Shown here: in pieces, positions 34,499-55,609 of the stretch
Layout: the number at the start of each line of letters is the position of its first letter
Numbering within the stretch: position 1 is the stretch's first letter
Source: an uncultured Candidatus Saccharibacteria bacterium
GTDB lineage: Bacteria; Patescibacteriota; Minisyncoccia; Phycocordibacterales; CAIZLB01
Direction: 5' to 3'
NCBI GenBank assembly: GCA_964550955.1
Contig: CAZKAF010000001.1
Span: 393,920 to 457,919 of the forward strand
DNA length: 64,000 nucleotides
The notes under the pieces: model-generated
What the model was told of the DNA's origin: nothing
Databases searched by the model: none
Seen by the model: only the letters and a program-made list of their open reading frames with translations
Position numbers and translations under genes: made by a program

Positions 34499-34673
34499 TC
34501 AAATTTCATGCGGCACGCGGCCTTTATAATTTAAGGAAGCATATCGAATACAAAGCAGGCAAATGACGCAATAAGGCCGCGAAAAAAACACCCGCCCTGT
34601 TACGGACGAGTGTTTTTTTGTTTGTCCCGATTACCAAGAGCGGCAACCGAGGCCGGAAGATTGGATTCCTGAT

Positions 34674-35999
34674 TTACTCAGCGAGACCTTTCTTCTGCAT
34701 GTTGGCAAGCTTGAAAGCCTGAGCCTTTGTCATGATGCCGGCAACCGCTGATTCAGAAACTGAACCGATCGCCGAGACACCGTTCGCAACTGCCATGTTC
34801 TTGGACTTTCGAGTAAGAACGTACGCCGCGAAGATTGACCAGAGCACGAGACCGACCGAGAAGAGCGTCATCTTGAGGCCGAAGCTGATTCCTGTCGCAG
34901 GCACCTGATTAAGGAATACGCCTGAAACCGGAGTACCAAGATTCTGATCTCGGATAACTGTTACGTTTGAGCCGATCACCGCGCCGATGTTAACCGCGCA
35001 TGTGCCCGTGACTGTCTGGCCGTTCACGTATGCCGTGAATGTAGCCGTCTTGTATCCCGGAGTCGAATACGCTCGTGAGACCGTATGAGAATTTCCGTAG
35101 AGCCCGTCCGTGCCTGACCATGAGAATGAGGTCGCGCCGTAAACTGAACCGTTTATGTATGCTGTCCAAACCACTGTCTGATTGATAGTCACGTTTGCAG
35201 GAGTGGCAACACAGTATGCGTTGACAGGAGTGACAGGCGGATAATATGTATCCTGCTGAACTGTTACTGAGCATGTCTTCGTAATTGACTGCGAACCTGA
35301 AGTGATTACGACCGTTACGGACTTGACGCCCGCATATGAGAATCGTCCGGTGAATGACTGGCTTGAGGCATTGATGCCGTCAGCGCCTGACCACTGGTAC
35401 GTATATGAGCCTGAACCGCCAGTCGCATGCGCGGAGAAAGTCACATCCTGGTTGACTCGAACTACTGAAGGAGAAATAACACAATATCCGTCAAGATTCT
35501 GCTGGTTGTTCGTATTGGTGCCGGAACCGCCGCCGAGGACCACGATGTTGATGTCGTTGTTGTTCGTCGGGTTGAACGTGTTGCTGATCACGTTCGTGTT
35601 GCTGTTAGAGTTGGTGTTCGTATTCTTGTTAGAATTCGAGCTGTACACGTACGTCAGCTGGCCTGCAGTCGCGGATGATCCGCCCCCTCCGCCAGTTGGC
35701 GTGTTGTAGACGTATCGCTGCGCAGGCGCAGGGATGTATGATCCGCCGCCGTAAGAAGGCTGGTAAGAATAAGTCGATACTGGAGTGGAAGTGTAATACG
35801 AACTTCCGCCAGAACCGTATGAATACGTGGATACTGGAGTGGAAGTGTAATATGACCCGCCGCCGATACCTCCCGAAGGACTGTAATCGGAAGTCTTGCC
35901 GGCAGCAGACGCAGAAGTTGGAATTGTTGAAACAACCAACGACATAGCAAATACAGCCACCGAGAAGACCTTTGCGATTGTTTTAATTGTGTTTTTCAT
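34674..35999 (-). CDS. Secreted surface protein with two PKD-like repeats and a C-terminal (V)PATG sorting-signal-like anchor
   Basis: Signal peptide, G/S/Y/T/N-rich low-complexity region, two PKD-like modules (YCVISPSVVRVNQDVTFSAHATGGSGSYTYQWSGADG and FSWSGTDG), then NQVPATG, a hydrophobic helix, a basic stop-transfer and a 45-aa tail. Confidence 0.6.
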   Translation of the reverse strand: MKNTIKTIAKVFSVAVFAMSLVVSTIPTSASAAGKTSDYSPSGGIGGGSYYTSTPVSTYSYGSGGSSYYTSTPVSTYSYQPSYGGGSYIPAPAQRYVYNTPTGGGGGSSATAGQLTYVYSSNSNKNTNTNSNSNTNVISNTFNPTNNNDINIVVLGGGSGTNTNNQQNLDGYCVISPSVVRVNQDVTFSAHATGGSGSYTYQWSGADGINASSQSFTGRFSYAGVKSVTVVITSGSQSITKTCSVTVQQDTYYPPVTPVNAYCVATPANVTINQTVVWTAYINGSVYGATSFSWSGTDGLYGNSHTVSRAYSTPGYKTATFTAYVNGQTVTGTCAVNIGAVIGSNVTVIRDQNLGTPVSGVFLNQVPATGISFGLKMTLFSVGLVLWSIFAAYVLTRKSKNMAVANGVSAIGSVSESAVAGIMTKAQAFKLANMQKKGLAE

Positions 36000-36120
36000 A
36001 GTGTTATCATTATATACCGATAAGTATATTTAGTCAAGTACTGATATTGATTCCTTTCATTTCTTGTGTTATGGAAAATTCAGCTTATTTACCATACTAT
36101 AACTTATTTATATCATAGTA

Positions 36121-36292: not shown

Positions 36293-36709
36293 ATGAAAAC
36301 GCAACTTATCATCGCCCTTATCCTGACCTCACTCCTGTCCTCCTGCGTCGTTCCTCCCCCAAGGAGAAACATGGGTCCGCCCCCAATGCCAATGGTTCAT
36401 CAGCAGCAAATGATGATGAACCCTGGACTCAGGCCCGGGCCCGGGATGCAACAGCATCCTGGCATGCCCCACGCAGGGGCCGGCAGAGGACAAAGGATCA
36501 ACCACGGCGTTCAGGGCCGTTTTGTCCAGAAATGGACGAACGGCCAGAAAGATGGGCCGCCCATCTGGATTCCAGCCGACGAGGACTCTGATCCCCAGGG
36601 AAAAACCTACAACGGCCTGGAGGTGAAACACCGGGCCGGAACTCAGATTGAAAAAGCTGAGTTGGACAGAATCCTTAACCAGATTATTGGAGGGCCCGAG
36701 GAGGCCTGA
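36293..36709 (+). CDS. Small Pro/Met/Gln-rich lipoprotein
   Basis: MKTQLIIALILTSLLSSC signal peptide with a lipobox cysteine, then a P/M/Q/G-rich low-complexity mature part. Confidence 0.45.
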   Translation: MKTQLIIALILTSLLSSCVVPPPRRNMGPPPMPMVHQQQMMMNPGLRPGPGMQQHPGMPHAGAGRGQRINHGVQGRFVQKWTNGQKDGPPIWIPADEDSDPQGKTYNGLEVKHRAGTQIEKAELDRILNQIIGGPEEA

Positions 36710-36936: not shown

Positions 36937-37749
36937 TCAATCTTGGAGCTCCACCCCATCGCCAAGGGTCAGCCTCAGGCCTCGAGCCTTTTCGTCATGG
37001 GTGAGAATCACCTGTTCGAATTGGCTCAGCGGCATGCGGCTGGTTTCGGGCATGAATGGAAAGCGCACGAAGCACCTTGACCGAACTTTGGTGCCCCTTG
37101 GTCTTTCGACCAGGAGCCTGCCCTTGAGCCATGCCTCACGAGCTTTCGCTACGTGATTCTGATCATAGCCAGGCGAGGCCACGTAGAACCGGACCTTGTG
37201 CAGGTCTGACTCTTTGGTGAAGAGGTCCCACACCCCAAGACTTTCAACGTACCTGACCGGGTTTCCGACGATGACGACCTTGTCACCATTTTTGACCATG
37301 TCGTACACTGTCTTGGCGTTTGTGGTGCTAAGACGGACGCAGCCTCCCGACTGAGGTATCCCTTTTTCCTCATACACGACGAAATTGTCGTTGCCGTGTA
37401 TGAAGTATCCCTTTTCAGGGATAAGCCGGAGGGCGTACGGCATCGGAACGCCGTCGCGGTTCACATAACCCGGATCCTTTTCGCAGATCACGAAGGGTTT
37501 TCCGGGAGTGCTGTTTGGGGTGGTTTGATCTCCTTTTTTAGGATCGACGAAAATCGACCCGGTGCCGCAGATGGCGTGGAAGACGTTTTCTCCGTCTTTG
37601 TAGACGGTCAGCGTCTGCACGTCCTGGTTGACGTAGATGTAGGTTCCGTCGTAACCCACGTCAGTGGGCAATCCCTGAGCCTCTGCAGGCTGCACGGCGA
37701 TAAAAAGGAAGACGATTGATACGATAGCAAAGAACAGTTTCGTTGTCAT
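36937..37749 (-). CDS. L,D-transpeptidase (YkuD domain) with signal peptide and a roughly 70-aa C-terminal extension
   Basis: Signal peptide MTTKLFFAIVSIVFLFIAVQPAEA, then the catalytic region FIHGNDNF...SGGCVRLSTTNAKTVYDMV with HG and SGGC(V)R motifs. The C-terminal tail ends ...ARGLRLTLGDGVELQD. Terminator hairpin gcggcacc/ggtgccgc at 36877-36900. Confidence 0.7.
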   Translation of the reverse strand: MTTKLFFAIVSIVFLFIAVQPAEAQGLPTDVGYDGTYIYVNQDVQTLTVYKDGENVFHAICGTGSIFVDPKKGDQTTPNSTPGKPFVICEKDPGYVNRDGVPMPYALRLIPEKGYFIHGNDNFVVYEEKGIPQSGGCVRLSTTNAKTVYDMVKNGDKVVIVGNPVRYVESLGVWDLFTKESDLHKVRFYVASPGYDQNHVAKAREAWLKGRLLVERPRGTKVRSRCFVRFPFMPETSRMPLSQFEQVILTHDEKARGLRLTLGDGVELQD

Positions 37750-37929: not shown

Positions 37930-38352
37930 TCAGAAGAGGCTCCCGCCCTGCCAGCCGTCCCGGTGGCCCTGGTTATAGATGTACTTGAGCTGGCCGGTCG
38001 GATTGCTGTAAAGCGACCCATCCGGACCATGCCCGGTTTCGTAAAAATGACCGGACCGAGACTGACGCCCAGAAAGGGGCAGTCCGTTCATGTCATAACC
38101 AGTATGTTCGAAAGGCGGACCGAAGTCCTGTACACCGCCATTTCCCCAGTTTTGACCCCAACCCGGACCATATGACTGAGGTACGAAACCATTACCGACT
38201 CCGCACGCTCCACCAGCAAAAACTGGTTCGAAGTAGCCGTAGCTGCAATAGTTACCGTACGCATCGTAGTACCCAGCACAAGACGTGAGGGTTCCGATGC
38301 ACGCAAAAGCAAGGGTGAGCATTTTGAGATGCCCGAGTAGTTTAGCTTTCAT
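37930..38352 (-). CDS. Small Gly/Tyr-rich lipoprotein
   Basis: MKAKLLGHLKMLTLAFACIGTLTSC signal peptide with a lipobox, then a G/Y/N/W-rich mature region. Confidence 0.4.
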   Translation of the reverse strand: MKAKLLGHLKMLTLAFACIGTLTSCAGYYDAYGNYCSYGYFEPVFAGGACGVGNGFVPQSYGPGWGQNWGNGGVQDFGPPFEHTGYDMNGLPLSGRQSRSGHFYETGHGPDGSLYSNPTGQLKYIYNQGHRDGWQGGSLF

Positions 38353-38576: not shown

Positions 38577-39395
38577 TTACCTCACCCCGACATAATCCGC
38601 CTCCACCACGTACCGGTCGCTCTTTGAGCCGAAGCTGTCGCATGTCGAGATAGTAAGCATGTTCGTGGCCGTATCGAACTTCACGAGCGTGTCGTTCTTG
38701 TCTACCTTGCTTACCGATCGAACCTTGTATACAAAAGTCGTGGAACCCGAAGTCAGGAGAATCTCATCCCCTTTTTTCGTCTTGTGCAATTCATTGAAAA
38801 TGCGGTATGCCTGGTTTTGAACCACGCTCAGGCCGGTGCTGTGACCGAATATGAACATGTTCCCCTTGCCGATAGTTCCCGATCCGGGATATCGGACGGC
38901 ACCCTTCGTGAGCTCGCTGTCCAGATGACTGATGCTTGTCGAAGTCGGATTTCGGACTACGGCGTTTATGCCGAGCGAAGGAACCATAATCCGGTCAGGA
39001 ACGATGAGCCGATTGTCAGCTATCGAAGGATTTGAACCGGGACCCGCATTCCCGTTTGCGCCCGTGCCTCCAGTTCCCGCCGCATTTGACCCAGAATTCG
39101 CCGTGCCGGAACCCTGCCCTGTCGCGTTCAAGATTCCGAGAGCAGAGTTTTGTCCCACCGGACCCATCCCTCCGGACGAGCCGGACGGCGCAGTGCCGAC
39201 TGGCAAGGAACCGGCCGGAGCCGATGTGCCGAGGTTTTCCTTGAGCTCGCTCGGAAGAAGCCCGATGCCGGCCAGAAGGCCCGCTGTGCCGAGGAAAATC
39301 AATGCAAAGAACCCCAAGAAGCGCGTCTCGTTCTTGGAAAATAGCGTTTTAAAGCCGCTTTCGAGCCTTTGTTCAAGGCGTTCCAGGTCTTTCAT
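38577..39395 (-). CDS. Sortase-family transpeptidase (membrane-anchored)
   Basis: N-terminal TM helix, G/S/A/N-rich linker, catalytic domain with His (MFIFGHSTG), the TLxTC-type cysteine motif (MLTISTCD) and a conserved Arg (SDRYVVEA). Extended -10 TGGTATACT 6 nt before the ATG. Confidence 0.7.
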   Translation of the reverse strand: MKDLERLEQRLESGFKTLFSKNETRFLGFFALIFLGTAGLLAGIGLLPSELKENLGTSAPAGSLPVGTAPSGSSGGMGPVGQNSALGILNATGQGSGTANSGSNAAGTGGTGANGNAGPGSNPSIADNRLIVPDRIMVPSLGINAVVRNPTSTSISHLDSELTKGAVRYPGSGTIGKGNMFIFGHSTGLSVVQNQAYRIFNELHKTKKGDEILLTSGSTTFVYKVRSVSKVDKNDTLVKFDTATNMLTISTCDSFGSKSDRYVVEADYVGVR

Positions 39396-39460: not shown

Positions 39461-40678
39461 ATGAAAAACGTAATTCGAGTCATCATAATTATCGCAATAT
39501 TACTCATTCTCGTCTTCTTGAGCGTGGGCATCGTTCGGATAGTTCCAAAAGCCCTCTCTTCCCTTGCCTCTGCAACTGTTTCCATCGGTTCAATCTTCAG
39601 CGGAAACGATTCGAGCGCGACTTCGACCAGCGGAGTGGCCGGAAACAATCAAGGCACGACCATCGTTCCTGACGGAAACGGTTTTGTTATCGTCGGTTCT
39701 ACCTCGACAAGCCCTACGGCGACATCGACTTCCATTATTGATATCCTAAAATCCAAGCCGACGGATTCGAACGTCAACTATATTCCTGCGCCCGGAAGTC
39801 CGGTTCAAAACGCCGGGAACACAGGAACAATTAATACGGGCTCGCAGGCAAGCACGCAGGCATGCGTAAGCGGACGAAGTCCCGATCTTGCCGTGACCAT
39901 CCTTTCAAAGGGCGTCATCAACAAATCGACCGGGCTTTTCGTCGAGACGAACACGTTCACGACAGCTGACACCGTTTCGATCAGATTCAAGGTAAGCAAC
40001 CTCGGAACATGCGCCTCGGGCTCATGGAATCTCAAGGTCGTCATGCCATCGCAGGACGCGTCGGACCAGCTCCGGGACGTCATGAACGTCAATCCTCTTC
40101 CGGCGGGAGCCTCCGTTACGGGACAGGCAAACTTTGATAACCCGAGAATCACGAACCCTGTCTTCACCCTTGTCGTCACTGACAGAAGCGGACGGGACGC
40201 CAACGCATCCAACAGCGCGCTCTCCGTCAGCCTTCCTGTCGTGCAGGCCGGACCCGGAACGAACCCGGGAACGGTTCCAGTGTCAGGCGACGGCCGAGCG
40301 GACCTTGCAGTCCGAGTTCTCCAAGTAGGAACGCTCGACATCTATAACAGATTCGTGCCGCGAGCTCAGGGCTCATACGGAAACTTCAGGGCCGGCGAGC
40401 GAGTCGCGGTGCAGTTCGAAGTCATCAATCAGGGACGAATCGCGTCCGGACCGTGGAACTTCAGCGCGCAGCTTTCAAATTCTGCCAACGGCCAGTATCA
40501 GAATCCGCAATACGAGGCATCGATTCCATCAGGAGGAAAATCAACGTATACAATCGCGTATGACAACCTCGCGATCGGCTCGAATACCGTTTCCATCTAC
40601 GTGGACAACATGAATCAGGTAAACGAATTCAACGAGACGAACAACAGCGCGGCAGCAGGATTCAATGTGAGCTATTAA
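39461..40678 (+). CDS. Membrane-anchored surface protein with two CARDB-like domains
   Basis: N-terminal signal anchor, S/T-rich linker, two modules beginning PDLAVTIL.../ADLAVRVL... and ending ...NEFNETNNSAAAGFNVSY (the usual CARDB ending). Confidence 0.55.
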   Translation: MKNVIRVIIIIAILLILVFLSVGIVRIVPKALSSLASATVSIGSIFSGNDSSATSTSGVAGNNQGTTIVPDGNGFVIVGSTSTSPTATSTSIIDILKSKPTDSNVNYIPAPGSPVQNAGNTGTINTGSQASTQACVSGRSPDLAVTILSKGVINKSTGLFVETNTFTTADTVSIRFKVSNLGTCASGSWNLKVVMPSQDASDQLRDVMNVNPLPAGASVTGQANFDNPRITNPVFTLVVTDRSGRDANASNSALSVSLPVVQAGPGTNPGTVPVSGDGRADLAVRVLQVGTLDIYNRFVPRAQGSYGNFRAGERVAVQFEVINQGRIASGPWNFSAQLSNSANGQYQNPQYEASIPSGGKSTYTIAYDNLAIGSNTVSIYVDNMNQVNEFNETNNSAAAGFNVSY

Positions 40679-52631: not shown

Positions 52632-54113
52632 TTATGTTCGACTTGAGAGAAAGTTTATGATTCTTTCATCTACCTGAACGTCTCTCGGCGACAGCGGCGT
52701 GAGCAGCGTGATGCCTTCCATGCTTCTCACTCGGCTGAGCGCGACATATGCCTGGCCGTGAGCGAACGTGCCCTTGCCGAAATCGATGACGGCCTTGTCA
52801 AACGTCTTGCCTTGGCTCTTGTGAATGGTTACTGCCCAGGCCAGCTTGACCGGAAGCTGAACGTACTTGCCCACGACTTCCGACGAGACGGCATTGCTCA
52901 TGTCGTCGTATTCGTATCGGACCGACTCCCAGCTCTCGCTCTCCACCTCTTCAGTCTTGCCGTTCTCAAGCAATACGTGTATCGAGGTCGAGCCCATCTT
53001 CTTGACGACTCCGATGTCGCCGTTCACCCACCGGCCCACCGCGTCATTCTTTACCATCATGACCTGTGCGCCGGTCTTCAGGACAAGGGCGCTGGGGACC
53101 GGCGTATTTTTCTGATCGAACGTGCCGACGAGAGACCCCTTGTACGTCTTTGACGGAGAGTCTATTTTCTTGAGTTCTTTCTCGTTGATGGAGTCAGCCA
53201 TGGCATTCGTCGTAACCAGATGAATAACCCTGGCAGCAGAATTCCCAACATCGTTCTTGCCGGAAAAGCCGTTCGCGCTTTTGGAGCCCGCCTTGCTTCC
53301 GCCGAACTTGCCGGACCTCGAACCCGCAGATTCTTCCGCATCCAGGCTGATGATAGTTTCAGACCCGTCGCCGTCGAAGACGTCTATGCCGTCGTACTCG
53401 CCGCCGTAGCCCCCCTCGGAATACTGAGGCGCCCCCCGGGCATTTTTTTTGTCGAACGAGCCGTTCGTGCAGCAGATAGAATTTATCTTATATATGTGGT
53501 TCGGCTCTATCTGTCCGATGCGCATCTTGTCCAGGATGCTGATGAATTCGTGATCGCTTTGCCGATATACTTCGGTCAGCTCGGCGACCTGGAACTCGCC
53601 CCTCTGATACGCTTTCGAATCGAAAAAATAAGGACTCTCATACTTGCTCGTGAACAGGTATTGTTCGTGGGGAGAAACGATGGGCGGAAGCTGAAACAGG
53701 TCGCCGATGACCACGATCTGCACCCCTCCGAACGGCTCCCCGGGAGTCGGTCCGTTGAGCCTCAGGAACTTTTCAATGCAATCGAACAGGTCCGCGCGAA
53801 CCATGGATATCTCGTCGATGACAAGAATGTCTATCTTCTTGTACAGCTTCGCGAGCTCCGCATTCGTCGTGACATGCATGTCCTGCTCGCTTACTCCGAT
53901 CTTGAATTTGAAAAAGCTGTGAATGGTCTGCCCCTTCACGTTCAGCGCCGCGATGCCCGTCGGAGCGACGACAGCGACGTTCTTTTTCGTCGTATCCCTG
54001 AAATGGCTGAGAAGGGTCGACTTGCCAGTGCCGGCCCGGCCCGTAATGAACAGATTCTGCTTCGATCCTTCTAAAATTTCAATGACATCTTGAGCTTCCG
54101 CGGATAATTTCAT
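52632..54113 (-). CDS. Pif1/RecD-family 5'-3' DNA helicase
   Basis: Walker A ITGRAGTGKSTLL, VVAPTGIAA, Walker B VIDEISMV, and C-terminal VTIHKSQGKTFD...AYVALSRVRS. A G/S-rich insertion is present. Preceded by TTTTTCTGCTACTATGTAGCC-ATG. Confidence 0.75.
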   Translation of the reverse strand: MKLSAEAQDVIEILEGSKQNLFITGRAGTGKSTLLSHFRDTTKKNVAVVAPTGIAALNVKGQTIHSFFKFKIGVSEQDMHVTTNAELAKLYKKIDILVIDEISMVRADLFDCIEKFLRLNGPTPGEPFGGVQIVVIGDLFQLPPIVSPHEQYLFTSKYESPYFFDSKAYQRGEFQVAELTEVYRQSDHEFISILDKMRIGQIEPNHIYKINSICCTNGSFDKKNARGAPQYSEGGYGGEYDGIDVFDGDGSETIISLDAEESAGSRSGKFGGSKAGSKSANGFSGKNDVGNSAARVIHLVTTNAMADSINEKELKKIDSPSKTYKGSLVGTFDQKNTPVPSALVLKTGAQVMMVKNDAVGRWVNGDIGVVKKMGSTSIHVLLENGKTEEVESESWESVRYEYDDMSNAVSSEVVGKYVQLPVKLAWAVTIHKSQGKTFDKAVIDFGKGTFAHGQAYVALSRVRSMEGITLLTPLSPRDVQVDERIINFLSSRT

Positions 54114-54223: not shown

Positions 54224-55504
54224 TTAAAGACCTTTCCTTTGCCTCTGCATTTCCTTGAATCTTTCCGCGATATTCGCGCTCATGCCCGCGCTTGCGGCAT
54301 TGCTGCCGGCGCTTCCCCTTAATGCAGCCGAGGACTCTTTGGCTCCGTAATTCTTATGAAGCACGTATGCCGCGAAGAGGCTCCAGAGCGCAAGAGCGAA
54401 CGTGAAAAGCGTCATCTTGAGGCCGAAGCTGATGCCGGTTGCCGGAATCTGATTGAGAAATACTCCTGACACCGGCTGACCGACCGTCGGAGCGTACGTC
54501 GTAGGCTGGACATACGTATATGTCGGCTGAACATATTGCGACTGGTACGGATAGTAGTAGTTATGGTCATAATAATTTGACCCGTAGTACGTCGAGCCGT
54601 ATCCATAGTATGAAGTTACCGTCACAAGAAGGCTCGTGCACGCATAGCTGAGGGATGTCGAGCAGATGCTGAACGAGACGGTTCCCGGATTCGTAGCGGT
54701 GACCTGGACGGTATTGTTGTTGACGATGCTCGCGGACGCGATGTTCGCTCCCGGGCTGTTTGAAATGTAATAAGAACCGGATCCGCCGTAAATCGTGACG
54801 GACTGAACCTGGCCCTGCTGAAGCGTGACGGAACTCTGGCTCAAAGTCACCGATGACGAGCCTCCCCACCACGTGCTGTTCACCGTCACGAAAAGATTGG
54901 CGCAGCCGCCGGACGAAGCCTGGGAGCAGACGCTGAAAGTCATCGATCCTTGAGACACGCCGGTTACCGAAATCGCGTTTCCGACAATGTTTGCCGTCGC
55001 GACATTCGAATTAGAATTTGAAGAAATATAATAGCTGCCGCTGCCGCCATATATCTGAGTCGAGGCGGTCTGGTTCGAGTTCACGCTCAGCGAGGACTGG
55101 CCGAAGTAAATTTGCCCGCCCGTCGATCCGCCTGATGACGGCCACGTGGCGCTCATGGATTGGAAGCCGTTCACGACGACGTAGACGATGCTGCCGCTTT
55201 GGATATTGTATTGGCCCGAAGAAACCGTAGTCGAAAATGATCCTGCATAGTTTGTCGTGCCGATAGTGCCCGCATAAACGGCGTTGCCGGAACCGGAAGG
55301 ATAATAATAAAGAAGGACGCTCGCATTCGGATCGGCGTTCACTCCGATATGGACCTGATTGCCGCCGACAGATGACACGGAAAGATGCGCCGTGGCTGCG
55401 GCAGCCTGGCCCGGAACGGCCACGGCCGCCAAGGCGACTGAAAATAACCCTATGAATAAGGATGCGACGAGACCAGCCGTGAAAAGGTTTTTTATGTTCT
55501 TCAT
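54224..55504 (-). CDS. Secreted surface protein with tandem roughly 90-aa Ig-like repeats and a C-terminal (I)PATG sorting-signal-like anchor (paralog of 34674-35999 at the C-terminus)
   Basis: Signal peptide, two repeats beginning IYGGSGSYYIS, Y-rich region, then PVSGVFLNQIPATGISFGLKMTLF...AAYVL, a basic stop-transfer and a 44-aa tail. Confidence 0.6.
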   Translation of the reverse strand: MKNIKNLFTAGLVASLFIGLFSVALAAVAVPGQAAAATAHLSVSSVGGNQVHIGVNADPNASVLLYYYPSGSGNAVYAGTIGTTNYAGSFSTTVSSGQYNIQSGSIVYVVVNGFQSMSATWPSSGGSTGGQIYFGQSSLSVNSNQTASTQIYGGSGSYYISSNSNSNVATANIVGNAISVTGVSQGSMTFSVCSQASSGGCANLFVTVNSTWWGGSSSVTLSQSSVTLQQGQVQSVTIYGGSGSYYISNSPGANIASASIVNNNTVQVTATNPGTVSFSICSTSLSYACTSLLVTVTSYYGYGSTYYGSNYYDHNYYYPYQSQYVQPTYTYVQPTTYAPTVGQPVSGVFLNQIPATGISFGLKMTLFTFALALWSLFAAYVLHKNYGAKESSAALRGSAGSNAASAGMSANIAERFKEMQRQRKGL

Positions 55505-55609
55505 GATAGGCGTACTATACGCCTATCAGCAGGCAAATTCAAGCATTTGCAAGCCGCGAGGATTCCGCAGACTTTGACTGCCGAGGACTTCAGACAAGAG
55601 TCAGAAAGG

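What the first reader, a model, noticed from the sequence alone, without database searches (positions are those of the whole stretch)
34674..35999. Sortase substrates with a noncanonical (V/I)PATG signal and an unusually long, conserved cytoplasmic tail (paralog pair with 54224-55504)
Both secreted repeat proteins end in ...PVSGVFLNQ(V/I)PATGISFGLKMTLF..LW.S.FAAYVL + basic residues + a 44-45-aa Ala/Ser/Gly-rich tail ending in an amphipathic FK..MQ..KGL segment. The motif, hydrophobic helix and positive stop-transfer match the LPXTG cell-wall sorting logic, and a sortase is encoded 2.5 kb away (38577-39395). But the motif has Val/Ile at position 1, and the tail is 4-8 times longer than classical sorting signals. 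The tail is also conserved between paralogs, including a 26-nt identical stretch (agcgtcatcttgaggccgaagctgat), which suggests the tail itself has a function such as retention, partner binding or regulated cleavage.
Basis: partly seen in the sequence, partly recalled or inferred. Interest (0 to 1): 0.7.

Follow-up and report, generated by a model that had tools for sequence, protein, structure and literature searches.

The report
CPR sortase anchor with functional tail
Two unrelated surface proteins of an uncultured Paceibacterota (CPR) bacterium end in the same unannotated 89-residue module that looks like a sortase cell-wall anchoring signal, but with a conserved membrane helix and a long conserved cytoplasmic tail, so the normally discarded part of the signal probably has a job of its own.

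Summary
Proteins A (34674-35999, -) and B (54224-55504, -) share only their last ~89 residues (54% identity, E 7e-23). The shared part reads PVSGVFLNQ[VI]PATG, then a 25-residue hydrophobic segment, a basic cluster and a 44-45 aa tail.

An exhaustive profile search finds this module in at least 183 protein clusters, with no Pfam or NCBIfam model and no paper found. The loci recovered all come from CPR metagenome-assembled genomes. Across the family L(-3), P, T and G are invariant. Position 1 is V/I/L and the X position varies (Y/A/S/D/N/E/F), which is the sortase pentapeptide pattern. Some members have classical short basic tails.

An ortholog of the window's sortase (38577-39395) lies 0-7 kb upstream of the A ortholog in 10 of 11 genomes and is directly adjacent in four loci.

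The tail is a variable disordered linker plus a conserved terminal helix, IExFKxxN[ML]x[KR]KG. In distant relatives it is replaced by 70-350 aa cytoplasmic domains.

Best reading: a dedicated sortase sorting module whose membrane and cytoplasmic parts are functional. Cleavage and tail function are inferred, not shown. The 26-nt identical stretch encodes ISFGLKMTL, the start of the membrane segment, not the tail. The proteins are module-sharing rather than full paralogs.

The parts
34674..35999 (-). Gene A, 441 aa: signal peptide, Gly/Ser/Tyr/Thr-rich repeats, two PKD-like domains, C-terminal sorting module
   Evidence: ORF. Weak PKD hits below Pfam's cut-off. The same gene is called on two public contigs. 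Orthologs in 12 or more loci.
34890..34904 (-). VPATG pentapeptide of A (V366-G370), the proposed sortase cleavage site between T369 and G370
   Evidence: P, T and G are invariant and X is variable across 139-149 family clusters. The motif lies in a non-helical segment of the AF2 model.
34791..34883 (-). Predicted membrane helix of A (residues 373-403) with family-conserved K, LF, GL, WS, F, A and Y positions, followed by a basic cluster
   Evidence: AF2 helix 20-50 of the module, pLDDT about 95. Column conservation. It contains the 26-nt stretch that is identical to B (34864-34889).
34749..34790 (-). Variable Ala/Ser/Gly-rich cytoplasmic linker of A
   Evidence: pLDDT below 50. Length and sequence vary among orthologs; whole tails range from 26 to 49 aa.
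34692..34748 (-). Conserved terminal helix of A (residues 418-436, ...TKAQAFKLANMQK); family motif IExFKxxN[ML]x[KR]KG
   Evidence: AF2 helix 65-83, pLDDT 81-84. F and K invariant, N at least 90% in the 56 modules aligned. The conserved residues fall on one helical face.
54224..55504 (-). Gene B, 426 aa: signal peptide, two Ig-like repeats, Tyr/Thr/Gln-rich linker, the same C-terminal module
   Evidence: ORF. Weak Ig-like hits below Pfam's cut-off. B-type orthologs L008, L016, L028 and L029.
54434..54448 (-). IPATG pentapeptide of B (I353-G357)
54227..54433 (-). Hydrophobic segment (54359-54433) and cytoplasmic tail (54227-54358) of B. The tail ends in ERFKEMQRQRKGL, the B-type variant FKxxQMxKKG.
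   Evidence: The B-type tail motif is conserved in L008, L016, L028 and L029.
38577..39395 (-). Sortase: short cytoplasmic N-terminus, one membrane helix, about 80 aa low-complexity linker, catalytic domain with His, Cys and Arg
   Evidence: PF04203 at 1.4e-21. No class model reaches its cut-off. The closest solved structures are class A sortases of Bacillus and Listeria. Ortholog alignment.
39461..40678 (+). CARDB-domain membrane-anchored surface protein, transcribed divergently from the sortase; conserved neighbour (context)
   Evidence: PF07705 at 1.2e-12. An ortholog sits next to the sortase in L003, L004, L006, L009, L010 and L012-L015.
36009..36037 (-). Promoter-like site of A (TTGACT, 17 nt, TATAAT). 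The -10 box ends 9 nt before the ATG.
34589..34608 (-). Terminator-like hairpin 66 nt after the stop codon of A
55514..55542 (-). Promoter-like site of B (TTGAAT, 17 nt, TATAGT). The -10 box ends 9 nt before the ATG.

Best explanation
A and B are secreted surface proteins of a Paceibacterota (CPR) bacterium. Both carry a lineage-specific sorting module that is much more conserved than a classical LPXTG signal.

Proposed mechanism:
1. The Sec system exports the ectodomain.
2. The module's helix stops transfer and holds the precursor in the membrane, with [VI]PATG just outside the membrane and the basic cluster inside.
3. The membrane-anchored sortase encoded at 38577-39395 cleaves between T and G and transfers the ectodomain to peptidoglycan.
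4. The remnant (Gly, conserved membrane helix, flexible linker, terminal helix) stays in the membrane.

The conserved membrane residues and the conserved I-F-N-L face of the terminal helix most likely dock the precursor or the remnant to a partner. That partner could be the sortase's own conserved membrane and juxtamembrane segment, or a cytoplasmic factor. This would make the 'discarded' part of the signal functional, for positioning or retaining the precursor, or for reporting that anchoring has taken place.

Shown here: the anatomy, family-wide conservation, the predicted topology and structure, and the genomic linkage to the sortase.

Inferred: cleavage, wall attachment, and the role of the tail.
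For: - Architecture: signal peptide, xPxTG, hydrophobic helix and basic cluster. AF2 gives a coil around the motif, a membrane helix with pLDDT about 95, a disordered linker and a terminal helix with pLDDT 81-84.
- Family: 183 clusters at E<=1e-3. P, T and G are invariant, position 1 is V 64% / I 30% / L 6%, and X is free (Y, A, S, D, N, E, F). This is the pattern expected of a sortase pentapeptide.
- 21 clusters have tails of 20 residues or fewer. Several are classical-looking short basic tails, such as KMKNARA, which was verified as complete on contigs L019-L021, L025 and L026.
- Linkage: sortase orthologs (E 1e-48 to 1e-81) lie upstream on the same strand in 10 of 11 genomes. They are directly adjacent in L012, L013 and L014 and in L024, where the motif is VPYTG.
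- No other xPxT-plus-membrane-segment-plus-basic candidate exists in about 330 kb of related DNA.
- Peptidoglycan genes are present in the window: a Mur ligase and a YkuD transpeptidase.
- Tail: the FKxxN motif is conserved in 78 clusters while the linkers vary. The A-type (FKxxNM) and B-type (FKxxQM) variants are each kept in their orthologs.
- The sortase's membrane helix and the LPSEL segment after it are conserved among orthologs.
- Precedent: a sortase remnant peptide is sensed by a two-component system in S. gordonii (cited in PMC11326707).
Against: - There is no biochemical evidence of cleavage.
- The conserved gene order also includes housekeeping genes (GyrB, ThrRS, DnaE). Part of the sortase-A linkage could therefore be general synteny among related genomes.
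- Distant family members are not next to a sortase: P0103, P0084 and L023.
- No curated LPXTG-anchor model matches.
- Strong conservation of residues before the motif, inside the membrane and in the cytoplasm is atypical for sortase signals. It would fit a permanent membrane anchor equally well.
- The sortase cannot be assigned to a class, so its specificity is unknown.
- No partner for the tail helix was identified.
Confidence: 0.6

Rival explanations
1. The module is a permanent, uncleaved C-terminal membrane anchor of a bitopic surface protein. On this reading xPxTG is a structural element next to the membrane, the cytoplasmic helix (or a larger domain in relatives) couples the ectodomain to something inside the cell, and the nearby sortase acts on other substrates.
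For: Sequence conservation runs through the membrane helix and into the cytoplasm. Relatives carry 70-350 aa cytoplasmic domains after the same core, which looks like a transmembrane receptor or adaptor. No LPXTG-anchor model matches. Distant members are not near sortases.
Against: Invariant P, T and G with a freely varying X is hard to explain structurally. Members with 7-11 aa basic tails look like ordinary sorting signals. The sortase is adjacent in four loci and close in most others. No alternative substrate for the sortase was found in about 330 kb.
Confidence: 0.2
2. A is a pilin-like subunit that its dedicated sortase polymerises into a covalent fibre, as in class C pilus islands. On this reading it is not simply anchored to the wall.
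For: Sortase and substrate form a gene pair. V/I-PxTG motifs are typical of streptococcal pilins (PMC5640630). Some relatives contain SpaA-type prealbumin domains.
Against: The sortase ends with its catalytic domain and has no C-terminal membrane helix. It scores 34 bits against a cut-off of 160 for class C. No YPKN-type pilin motif is visible in A or B (sequence). Only one sortase was seen in the window or in any locus examined, so a second sortase elsewhere cannot be excluded. B and many other ectodomains carry the same module at unlinked loci.
Confidence: 0.1
3. The module is a true sortase signal, but the long tail has no separate function. It would be only an extended stop-transfer or retention sequence that tolerates insertions.
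For: Linker length and sequence vary freely, giving tails of 26-49 aa. Some members do without the tail. The hydrophobic moment of the helix is modest.
Against: The terminal motif has invariant F and K and at least 90% N in the 56 modules aligned, and 78 clusters carry it. It always sits at the very end, whatever the linker length. A-type and B-type variants are each maintained in their orthologs. AF2 predicts a confident helix.
Confidence: 0.1

Closest known systems
LPXTG-type cell wall sorting signals of monoderm bacteria (Pfam PF00746 Gram_pos_anchor, TIGR01167), processed by class A/D/E-like sortases
   Same: An N-terminal signal peptide. A pentapeptide with invariant P, T and G and a free X. 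A hydrophobic segment starting about 5 residues later. A basic cluster on the cytoplasmic side. A sortase with the His-Cys-Arg triad encoded nearby.
   Different: Position 1 is V/I (L in 6% of clusters). Ten residues before the motif (SGV[FY]L[SN]Q) and about ten positions inside the membrane helix are conserved family-wide. The protein continues 26-49 residues beyond the basic cluster and ends in a conserved helix. No curated anchor model matches. The sortase falls below the cut-off of every class model.
Pilin sorting signals of class C sortase systems (S. pneumoniae RrgB IPQTG, RrgC VPDTG; PMC5640630)
   Same: V or I at position 1 of the pentapeptide. Substrate and sortase genes are linked.
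   Different: The sortase has no C-terminal membrane anchor and no class C score. No pilin motif is present. The same module sits on many unrelated ectodomains scattered through the genome.
Sortase remnant peptide ('C-pep') sensing by the SGO_1180 two-component system of Streptococcus gordonii (as cited in PMC11326707)
   Same: The membrane-embedded remnant left after sortase cleavage has a biological role. This gives a rationale for conservation of the membrane helix and the tail.
   Different: That remnant is an ordinary short LPXTG tail. Here the remnant would carry a dedicated conserved helix, or whole domains in relatives. No sensor kinase was seen near the genes. The analogy is functional only and untested.
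Dedicated C-terminal sorting domains paired with one processing enzyme (PEP-CTERM/exosortase, PGF-CTERM/archaeosortase, GlyGly-CTERM/rhombosortase, and the class GN 'marine' sortase with its target)
   Same: A lineage-specific, sequence-conserved tripartite domain (motif, membrane helix, basic cluster) that is appended to many different ectodomains and paired with one enzyme.
   Different: The signature motifs and enzyme families differ. Those domains end right after the basic cluster. No NCBIfam model of this kind matches. No exosortase or rhomboid was seen among the window genes scanned.

Membership tests
LPXTG-type cell wall sorting signal (sortase substrate) | N-terminal Sec signal peptide | tested here: met
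   By inspection of the translations. A: MKNTIKTIAKVFSVAVFAMSLVVSTIPTSASA|AG. B: MKNIKNLFTAGLVASLFIGLFSVALAAVAVPGQAAA. No dedicated predictor was available.
LPXTG-type cell wall sorting signal (sortase substrate) | xPxTG-like pentapeptide close to the C-terminus, with P, T and G conserved and X free | tested here: met
   VPATG and IPATG. Across the family P, T and G are 100% and X is one of Y, A, S, D, N, E or F. Position 1 is V/I/L rather than predominantly L.
LPXTG-type cell wall sorting signal (sortase substrate) | Hydrophobic membrane-spanning segment directly after the motif | tested here: met
   A 25-aa hydrophobic stretch. AF2 helix with pLDDT about 95.
LPXTG-type cell wall sorting signal (sortase substrate) | Short positively charged tail that ends the protein (about 5-12 residues) | tested here: not met
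   A basic cluster is present (TRKSK in A; HK in B), but 40 or more further residues follow. Some relatives do meet this feature, for example KMKNARA.
LPXTG-type cell wall sorting signal (sortase substrate) | Match to the curated anchor models (PF00746, TIGR01167) | tested here: not met
   No such hit at E<=0.1 in Pfam or E<=1 in NCBIfam for A or B, nor at E<=0.01 for ten relatives.
LPXTG-type cell wall sorting signal (sortase substrate) | Cleavage between T and G and amide linkage to peptidoglycan by a sortase | not testable with these tools
   Needs biochemistry or proteomics. The only support here is indirect: sortase linkage in 10 of 11 genomes.
Sortase (PF04203) - gene 38577-39395 | Sortase domain above the curated cut-off, with catalytic His, Cys (TLxTC-like) and Arg | tested here: met
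   77 bits against a cut-off of 26.6. TIGR01076 scores 40.9 against 39.35. GHST, LTISTCD and DRYVV are conserved in 11 orthologs.
Sortase classes A-F (NCBIfam class models) | Score above the class-specific cut-off | tested here: not met
   Class D 42, class C 34 and class E 34 bits against cut-offs of 160-165. Class GN 19 bits against 158. The sortase is unclassified.
Class C sortase pilus system | Sortase with a C-terminal membrane anchor and lid; substrate with a pilin motif (YPKN) lysine | tested here: not met
   The sortase ends at the catalytic domain. No YPK motif is present in A or B.
Exosortase / archaeosortase / rhombosortase sorting domains | PEP, PGF or GlyGly signature, with the cognate polytopic enzyme | tested here: not met
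   No NCBIfam hit. No such enzyme among the window genes scanned. The window was not annotated exhaustively.

The most novel reading that the evidence does not exclude
The module may be a two-in-one device. Sortase cleavage would release the ectodomain to the cell wall and, at the same time, create a membrane-anchored cytoplasmic effector: the conserved helix here, and 70-350 aa domains in relatives. That effector would report, position or regulate surface-protein display from inside the cell. This would be a class of sortase signals with built-in transmembrane signalling or coupling that has not been described.
Probability: 0.25. Interest if true: 0.8.

Novelty: new variant of a known kind. 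Interest (0 to 1): 0.6.

Why it matters
Sortases are common in CPR/Patescibacteria (more than half of the genomes, PMC6744442), but I found no description of their substrates. This module gives a concrete, searchable signature for the surface-anchored proteome of Paceibacterota. These are organisms that depend on cell-to-cell contact and cannot yet be grown alone.

The module also challenges the textbook view that everything after the TG of a sorting signal is disposable. Here the membrane helix and a cytoplasmic helix are under selection, and in relatives whole cytoplasmic domains follow the same core. If the remnant is functional, it would generalise the single known case of remnant-peptide sensing in streptococci. 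It would also suggest a simple way in which minimal cells couple surface display to cytoplasmic processes. A [VI]PxTG-specific sortase could also be a useful orthogonal ligation enzyme.

Tried and rejected
- A word-indexed homolog search with the module returned only 3 fragments and then 10, all named 'hypothetical protein'. It was useful only to show that no annotation exists.
- The search for related loci with the 40-sequence diverse alignment failed because no stretch was conserved enough. I repeated it with 8 close sequences.
- The single-sequence AF2 model of the long-tailed relative P0103 was unusable (mean pLDDT 46), so no fold search was run.
- The long cytoplasmic domains have no Pfam, NCBIfam or PHROG hit and no clear PDB hit. 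The only match is a weak one to an RFC5 segment (E 0.014).
- The idea that the FKxxN helix is a truncated first helix of the long domain (IEAFKKANM versus IEDYARMNK) aligns in register in hhalign but is not significant (E 0.15).
- I considered a membrane-binding amphipathic helix of the MinD or FtsA type. The hydrophobic moment is modest and a conserved Asn sits on the conserved face, so a protein contact seems more likely.
- I considered gene conversion between A and B as the cause of the 26-nt identity. 20 of 33 identical residues use the same codon and overall core identity is 78%. Paralogs in another genome (L011, L015, L016) are diverged. The evidence for concerted evolution is weak.
- A literature search for VPATG, IPATG or PYTG as sorting motifs found nothing relevant. 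Searches for sortase together with CPR, Patescibacteria or Parcubacteria found only general mentions.

Full report
**1. Observation**

The two ORFs are as described. A is 34674-35999 (-), 441 aa. B is 54224-55504 (-), 426 aa. Both begin with a Sec-type signal peptide, judged by inspection.

A continues with Gly/Ser/Tyr/Thr-rich repeats and two PKD-like domains. B has two Ig-like repeats and a Tyr/Thr/Gln-rich linker. All of these Pfam hits are weak and below Pfam's cut-offs.

BLASTP aligns only the last 89 residues (54% identity, E 7e-23). The rest is unrelated, so the proteins share a C-terminal module and are not paralogs over their length.

- VPATG lies at 34890-34904 and IPATG at 54434-54448.
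- A six-frame scan for xPx[TAS]G finds no other C-terminal candidate in the 64 kb window.
- The 26-nt identical run exists (34864-34889 and 54408-54433; none expected by chance). It encodes ISFGLKMTL, directly after the TG, so it lies in the membrane segment and not in the tail.
- The sortase at 38577-39395 is genuine. It hits PF04203 at 1.4e-21 and has His, Cys and Arg. It reaches no class-specific cut-off. Its nearest solved relatives are class A sortases of Bacillus anthracis and Listeria.

**2. The family**

A profile of five modules was searched exhaustively against 1.84 billion representative proteins. It found 183 clusters at E<=1e-3 and 62 at E<=1e-10.

In nearly all of them the geometry is fixed:
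- SGV[FY]L[SN]Q-[VIL]-P-x-T-G, with L at -3 and P, T and G invariant.
- Position 1 is V 64%, I 30%, L 6%.
- X is Y 48% or A 36%, and also S, D, N, E or F.
- K follows at +10, LF at +13/14, GL at +17/18 and WS at +21/22. F, A and Y follow further on, and then a Lys/Arg cluster.

The W and S columns were partly imposed by the pattern I used to register the sequences. L(-3), K and LF were not.

The ectodomains are diverse and include PKD, SpaA-type prealbumin, dockerin and SprB repeats. Neither Pfam nor NCBIfam has a model for the module. Source annotations say 'hypothetical protein'. A full-text search for the motifs found nothing relevant.

**3. The tails fall into classes**

| Tail length | Clusters | Content |
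|---|---|---|
| 20 aa or fewer | 21 | Several short basic tails that look classical, e.g. KMKNARA, confirmed complete on several contigs |
| 21-60 aa | 78, plus 4 without the motif | End in IExFKxxN[ML]x[KR]KG, the type in this window |
| 61-140 aa | about 29 | 25 carry a helical 'IE.YAR.NKVLLS.DA' domain |
| over 140 aa | 7 | A further C-terminal domain |

In the 56-sequence alignment of tail-bearing modules, F and K are invariant and N is at least 90% conserved. The linker varies in length and is Ala/Ser/Gly/Thr-rich.

AlphaFold2 on this alignment gives the following for A:
- An irregular segment around the motif (pLDDT 61-68).
- A helix at module residues 20-50 (pLDDT about 95).
- A disordered linker (pLDDT below 50).
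- A terminal helix at 65-83 (pLDDT 81-84), which is A residues 418-436.

The conserved I, F, N and L/I residues fall on one face of that helix. The hydrophobic moment is modest. This favours a protein contact over simple membrane binding.

A-type proteins keep FKxxNM and B-type proteins keep FKxxQM in their respective orthologs.

**4. Link to the sortase**

A genome scan returned 14 loci from 11 CPR metagenome-assembled genomes. They are labelled Paceibacterota, Parcubacteria, Patescibacteria or Taylorbacteria; three are labelled Saccharibacteria and one carries no taxon.

Orthologs of the window's sortase (E 1e-48 to 1e-81) lie upstream on the same strand as the A ortholog in 10 of the 11 genomes. 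They are directly adjacent in L012, L013 and L014.

The metagenome scan adds L032 and L024 (and L027, which encodes the same A-protein C-terminus as L006 and is probably the same organism). In L024 the A ortholog carries VPYTG and starts 80 nt after the sortase gene.

The conserved block is GyrB, CARDB protein (divergent), sortase, 0-6 kb of variable genes, A, (UDG), ThrRS, DnaE. In this window the variable genes are a small Gly/Tyr-rich secreted protein, a YkuD L,D-transpeptidase and a lipoprotein.

Because housekeeping genes are part of the block, some of the linkage may be general synteny. However, the sortase-A pairing survives local insertions and a change of the X residue.

- B-type genes are unlinked (L008, L016), as in the window.
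- A generic scan of about 330 kb of these genomes finds no other xPxT-plus-helix-plus-basic candidate and no canonical LPXTG protein.
- Distant members (P0103, P0084, L023) are not next to a sortase. This is expected if one housekeeping sortase serves many substrates, but it is no positive evidence.
- The sortase orthologs share a conserved short cytoplasmic segment, a membrane helix and an LPSEL segment, followed by a variable low-complexity stalk. The conserved membrane helix is a plausible partner for the substrate's conserved helix. That is inference.

**5. Interpretation**

The most economical reading is a dedicated sortase sorting module. The free X between invariant P and TG, the short-tailed members and the gene linkage all point that way. 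V or I at position 1 has precedent in the pilin signals IPQTG and VPDTG (PMC5640630).

What is unusual is conservation on both sides of the scissile bond, and above all in the part that stays behind. This argues that the remnant, or the uncleaved precursor, interacts specifically with something. The only precedent I found is the S. gordonii remnant peptide that is sensed by a two-component system (cited in PMC11326707).

The main rival is a permanent bitopic anchor. It is supported by the large cytoplasmic domains of relatives, and I cannot exclude it without biochemistry. A pilus-polymerising system is less likely, because the sortase lacks class C features and the substrates lack a pilin motif.

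**6. What did not work**

The long cytoplasmic domains remain unassigned. A single-sequence model was useless. A possible homology between the FKxxN helix and the first helix of the long domain is in register but not significant.

**7. Verdict**

This is a real feature and a previously unannotated family. It is best filed as a new variant of the sortase sorting signal, one whose membrane and cytoplasmic parts are conserved and probably functional. Sortases are known to be common in CPR (PMC6744442), but I found no description of their substrates. Interest is moderate to high. Cleavage and tail function remain to be shown.

Noticed in passing
window 36009-36037 (-) and 55514-55542 (-); start codons at 35999 and 55504: Both genes have a sigma-70-like promoter whose -10 box ends exactly 9 nt before the ATG, with no Shine-Dalgarno sequence in between. 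This suggests leaderless or nearly leaderless mRNAs. In the orthologs the in-frame translation just upstream of the start codon reads '(I/V)YN', which corresponds to TATAAT, so the arrangement appears to be conserved.
   Followed up: partly
window 39461-40678 (+): A membrane-anchored protein with CARDB domains is transcribed divergently from the sortase. It keeps this position in at least nine other genomes (L003, L004, L006, L009, L010, L012-L015). It has no sorting motif. It may be a functional partner of the sortase or of its substrate.
   Followed up: partly
window 36293-36709 (+), 36937-37749 (-), 37930-38322 (-): The stretch between the sortase and gene A holds three genes: a Pro/Met/Gln-rich lipoprotein (lipobox LSSC), a YkuD L,D-transpeptidase and a small Gly/Tyr-rich secreted protein. 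This insert varies between genomes. YkuD is seen again only in L004 and the small protein only in L003.
   Followed up: partly
relatives P0094-P0151 (e.g. P0103 residues ~235-327; P0095 residues ~860-1227); locus L018 10001-10984: Distant relatives carry the same xPYTG and membrane-helix core, followed by a ~70-aa helical cytoplasmic domain (IE.YAR.NKVLLS.DA...W..L). In seven clusters a second ~120-aa domain follows (QWL.GDD.K..F.RM.QMQGQ...). Neither domain has a Pfam, NCBIfam or PHROG match. The only hint is a weak match to a segment of replication factor C subunit 5 (E 0.014), which from memory looks like the AAA+ lid region.
   Followed up: partly
window 52632-54113 (-): A PIF1-family helicase gene lies directly downstream of gene B. 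It contains an internal Gly/Ser-rich low-complexity insertion at about residues 225-290.
   Followed up: no
loci L006, L009, L012 (records CAYXQC01, CAYWQF01, CAZCNA01): Three public MAGs labelled 'uncultured Candidatus Saccharibacteria' carry the same GyrB / CARDB / sortase / A / ThrRS / DnaE block as the Paceibacterota MAGs. Their taxonomic labels may be wrong.
   Followed up: no
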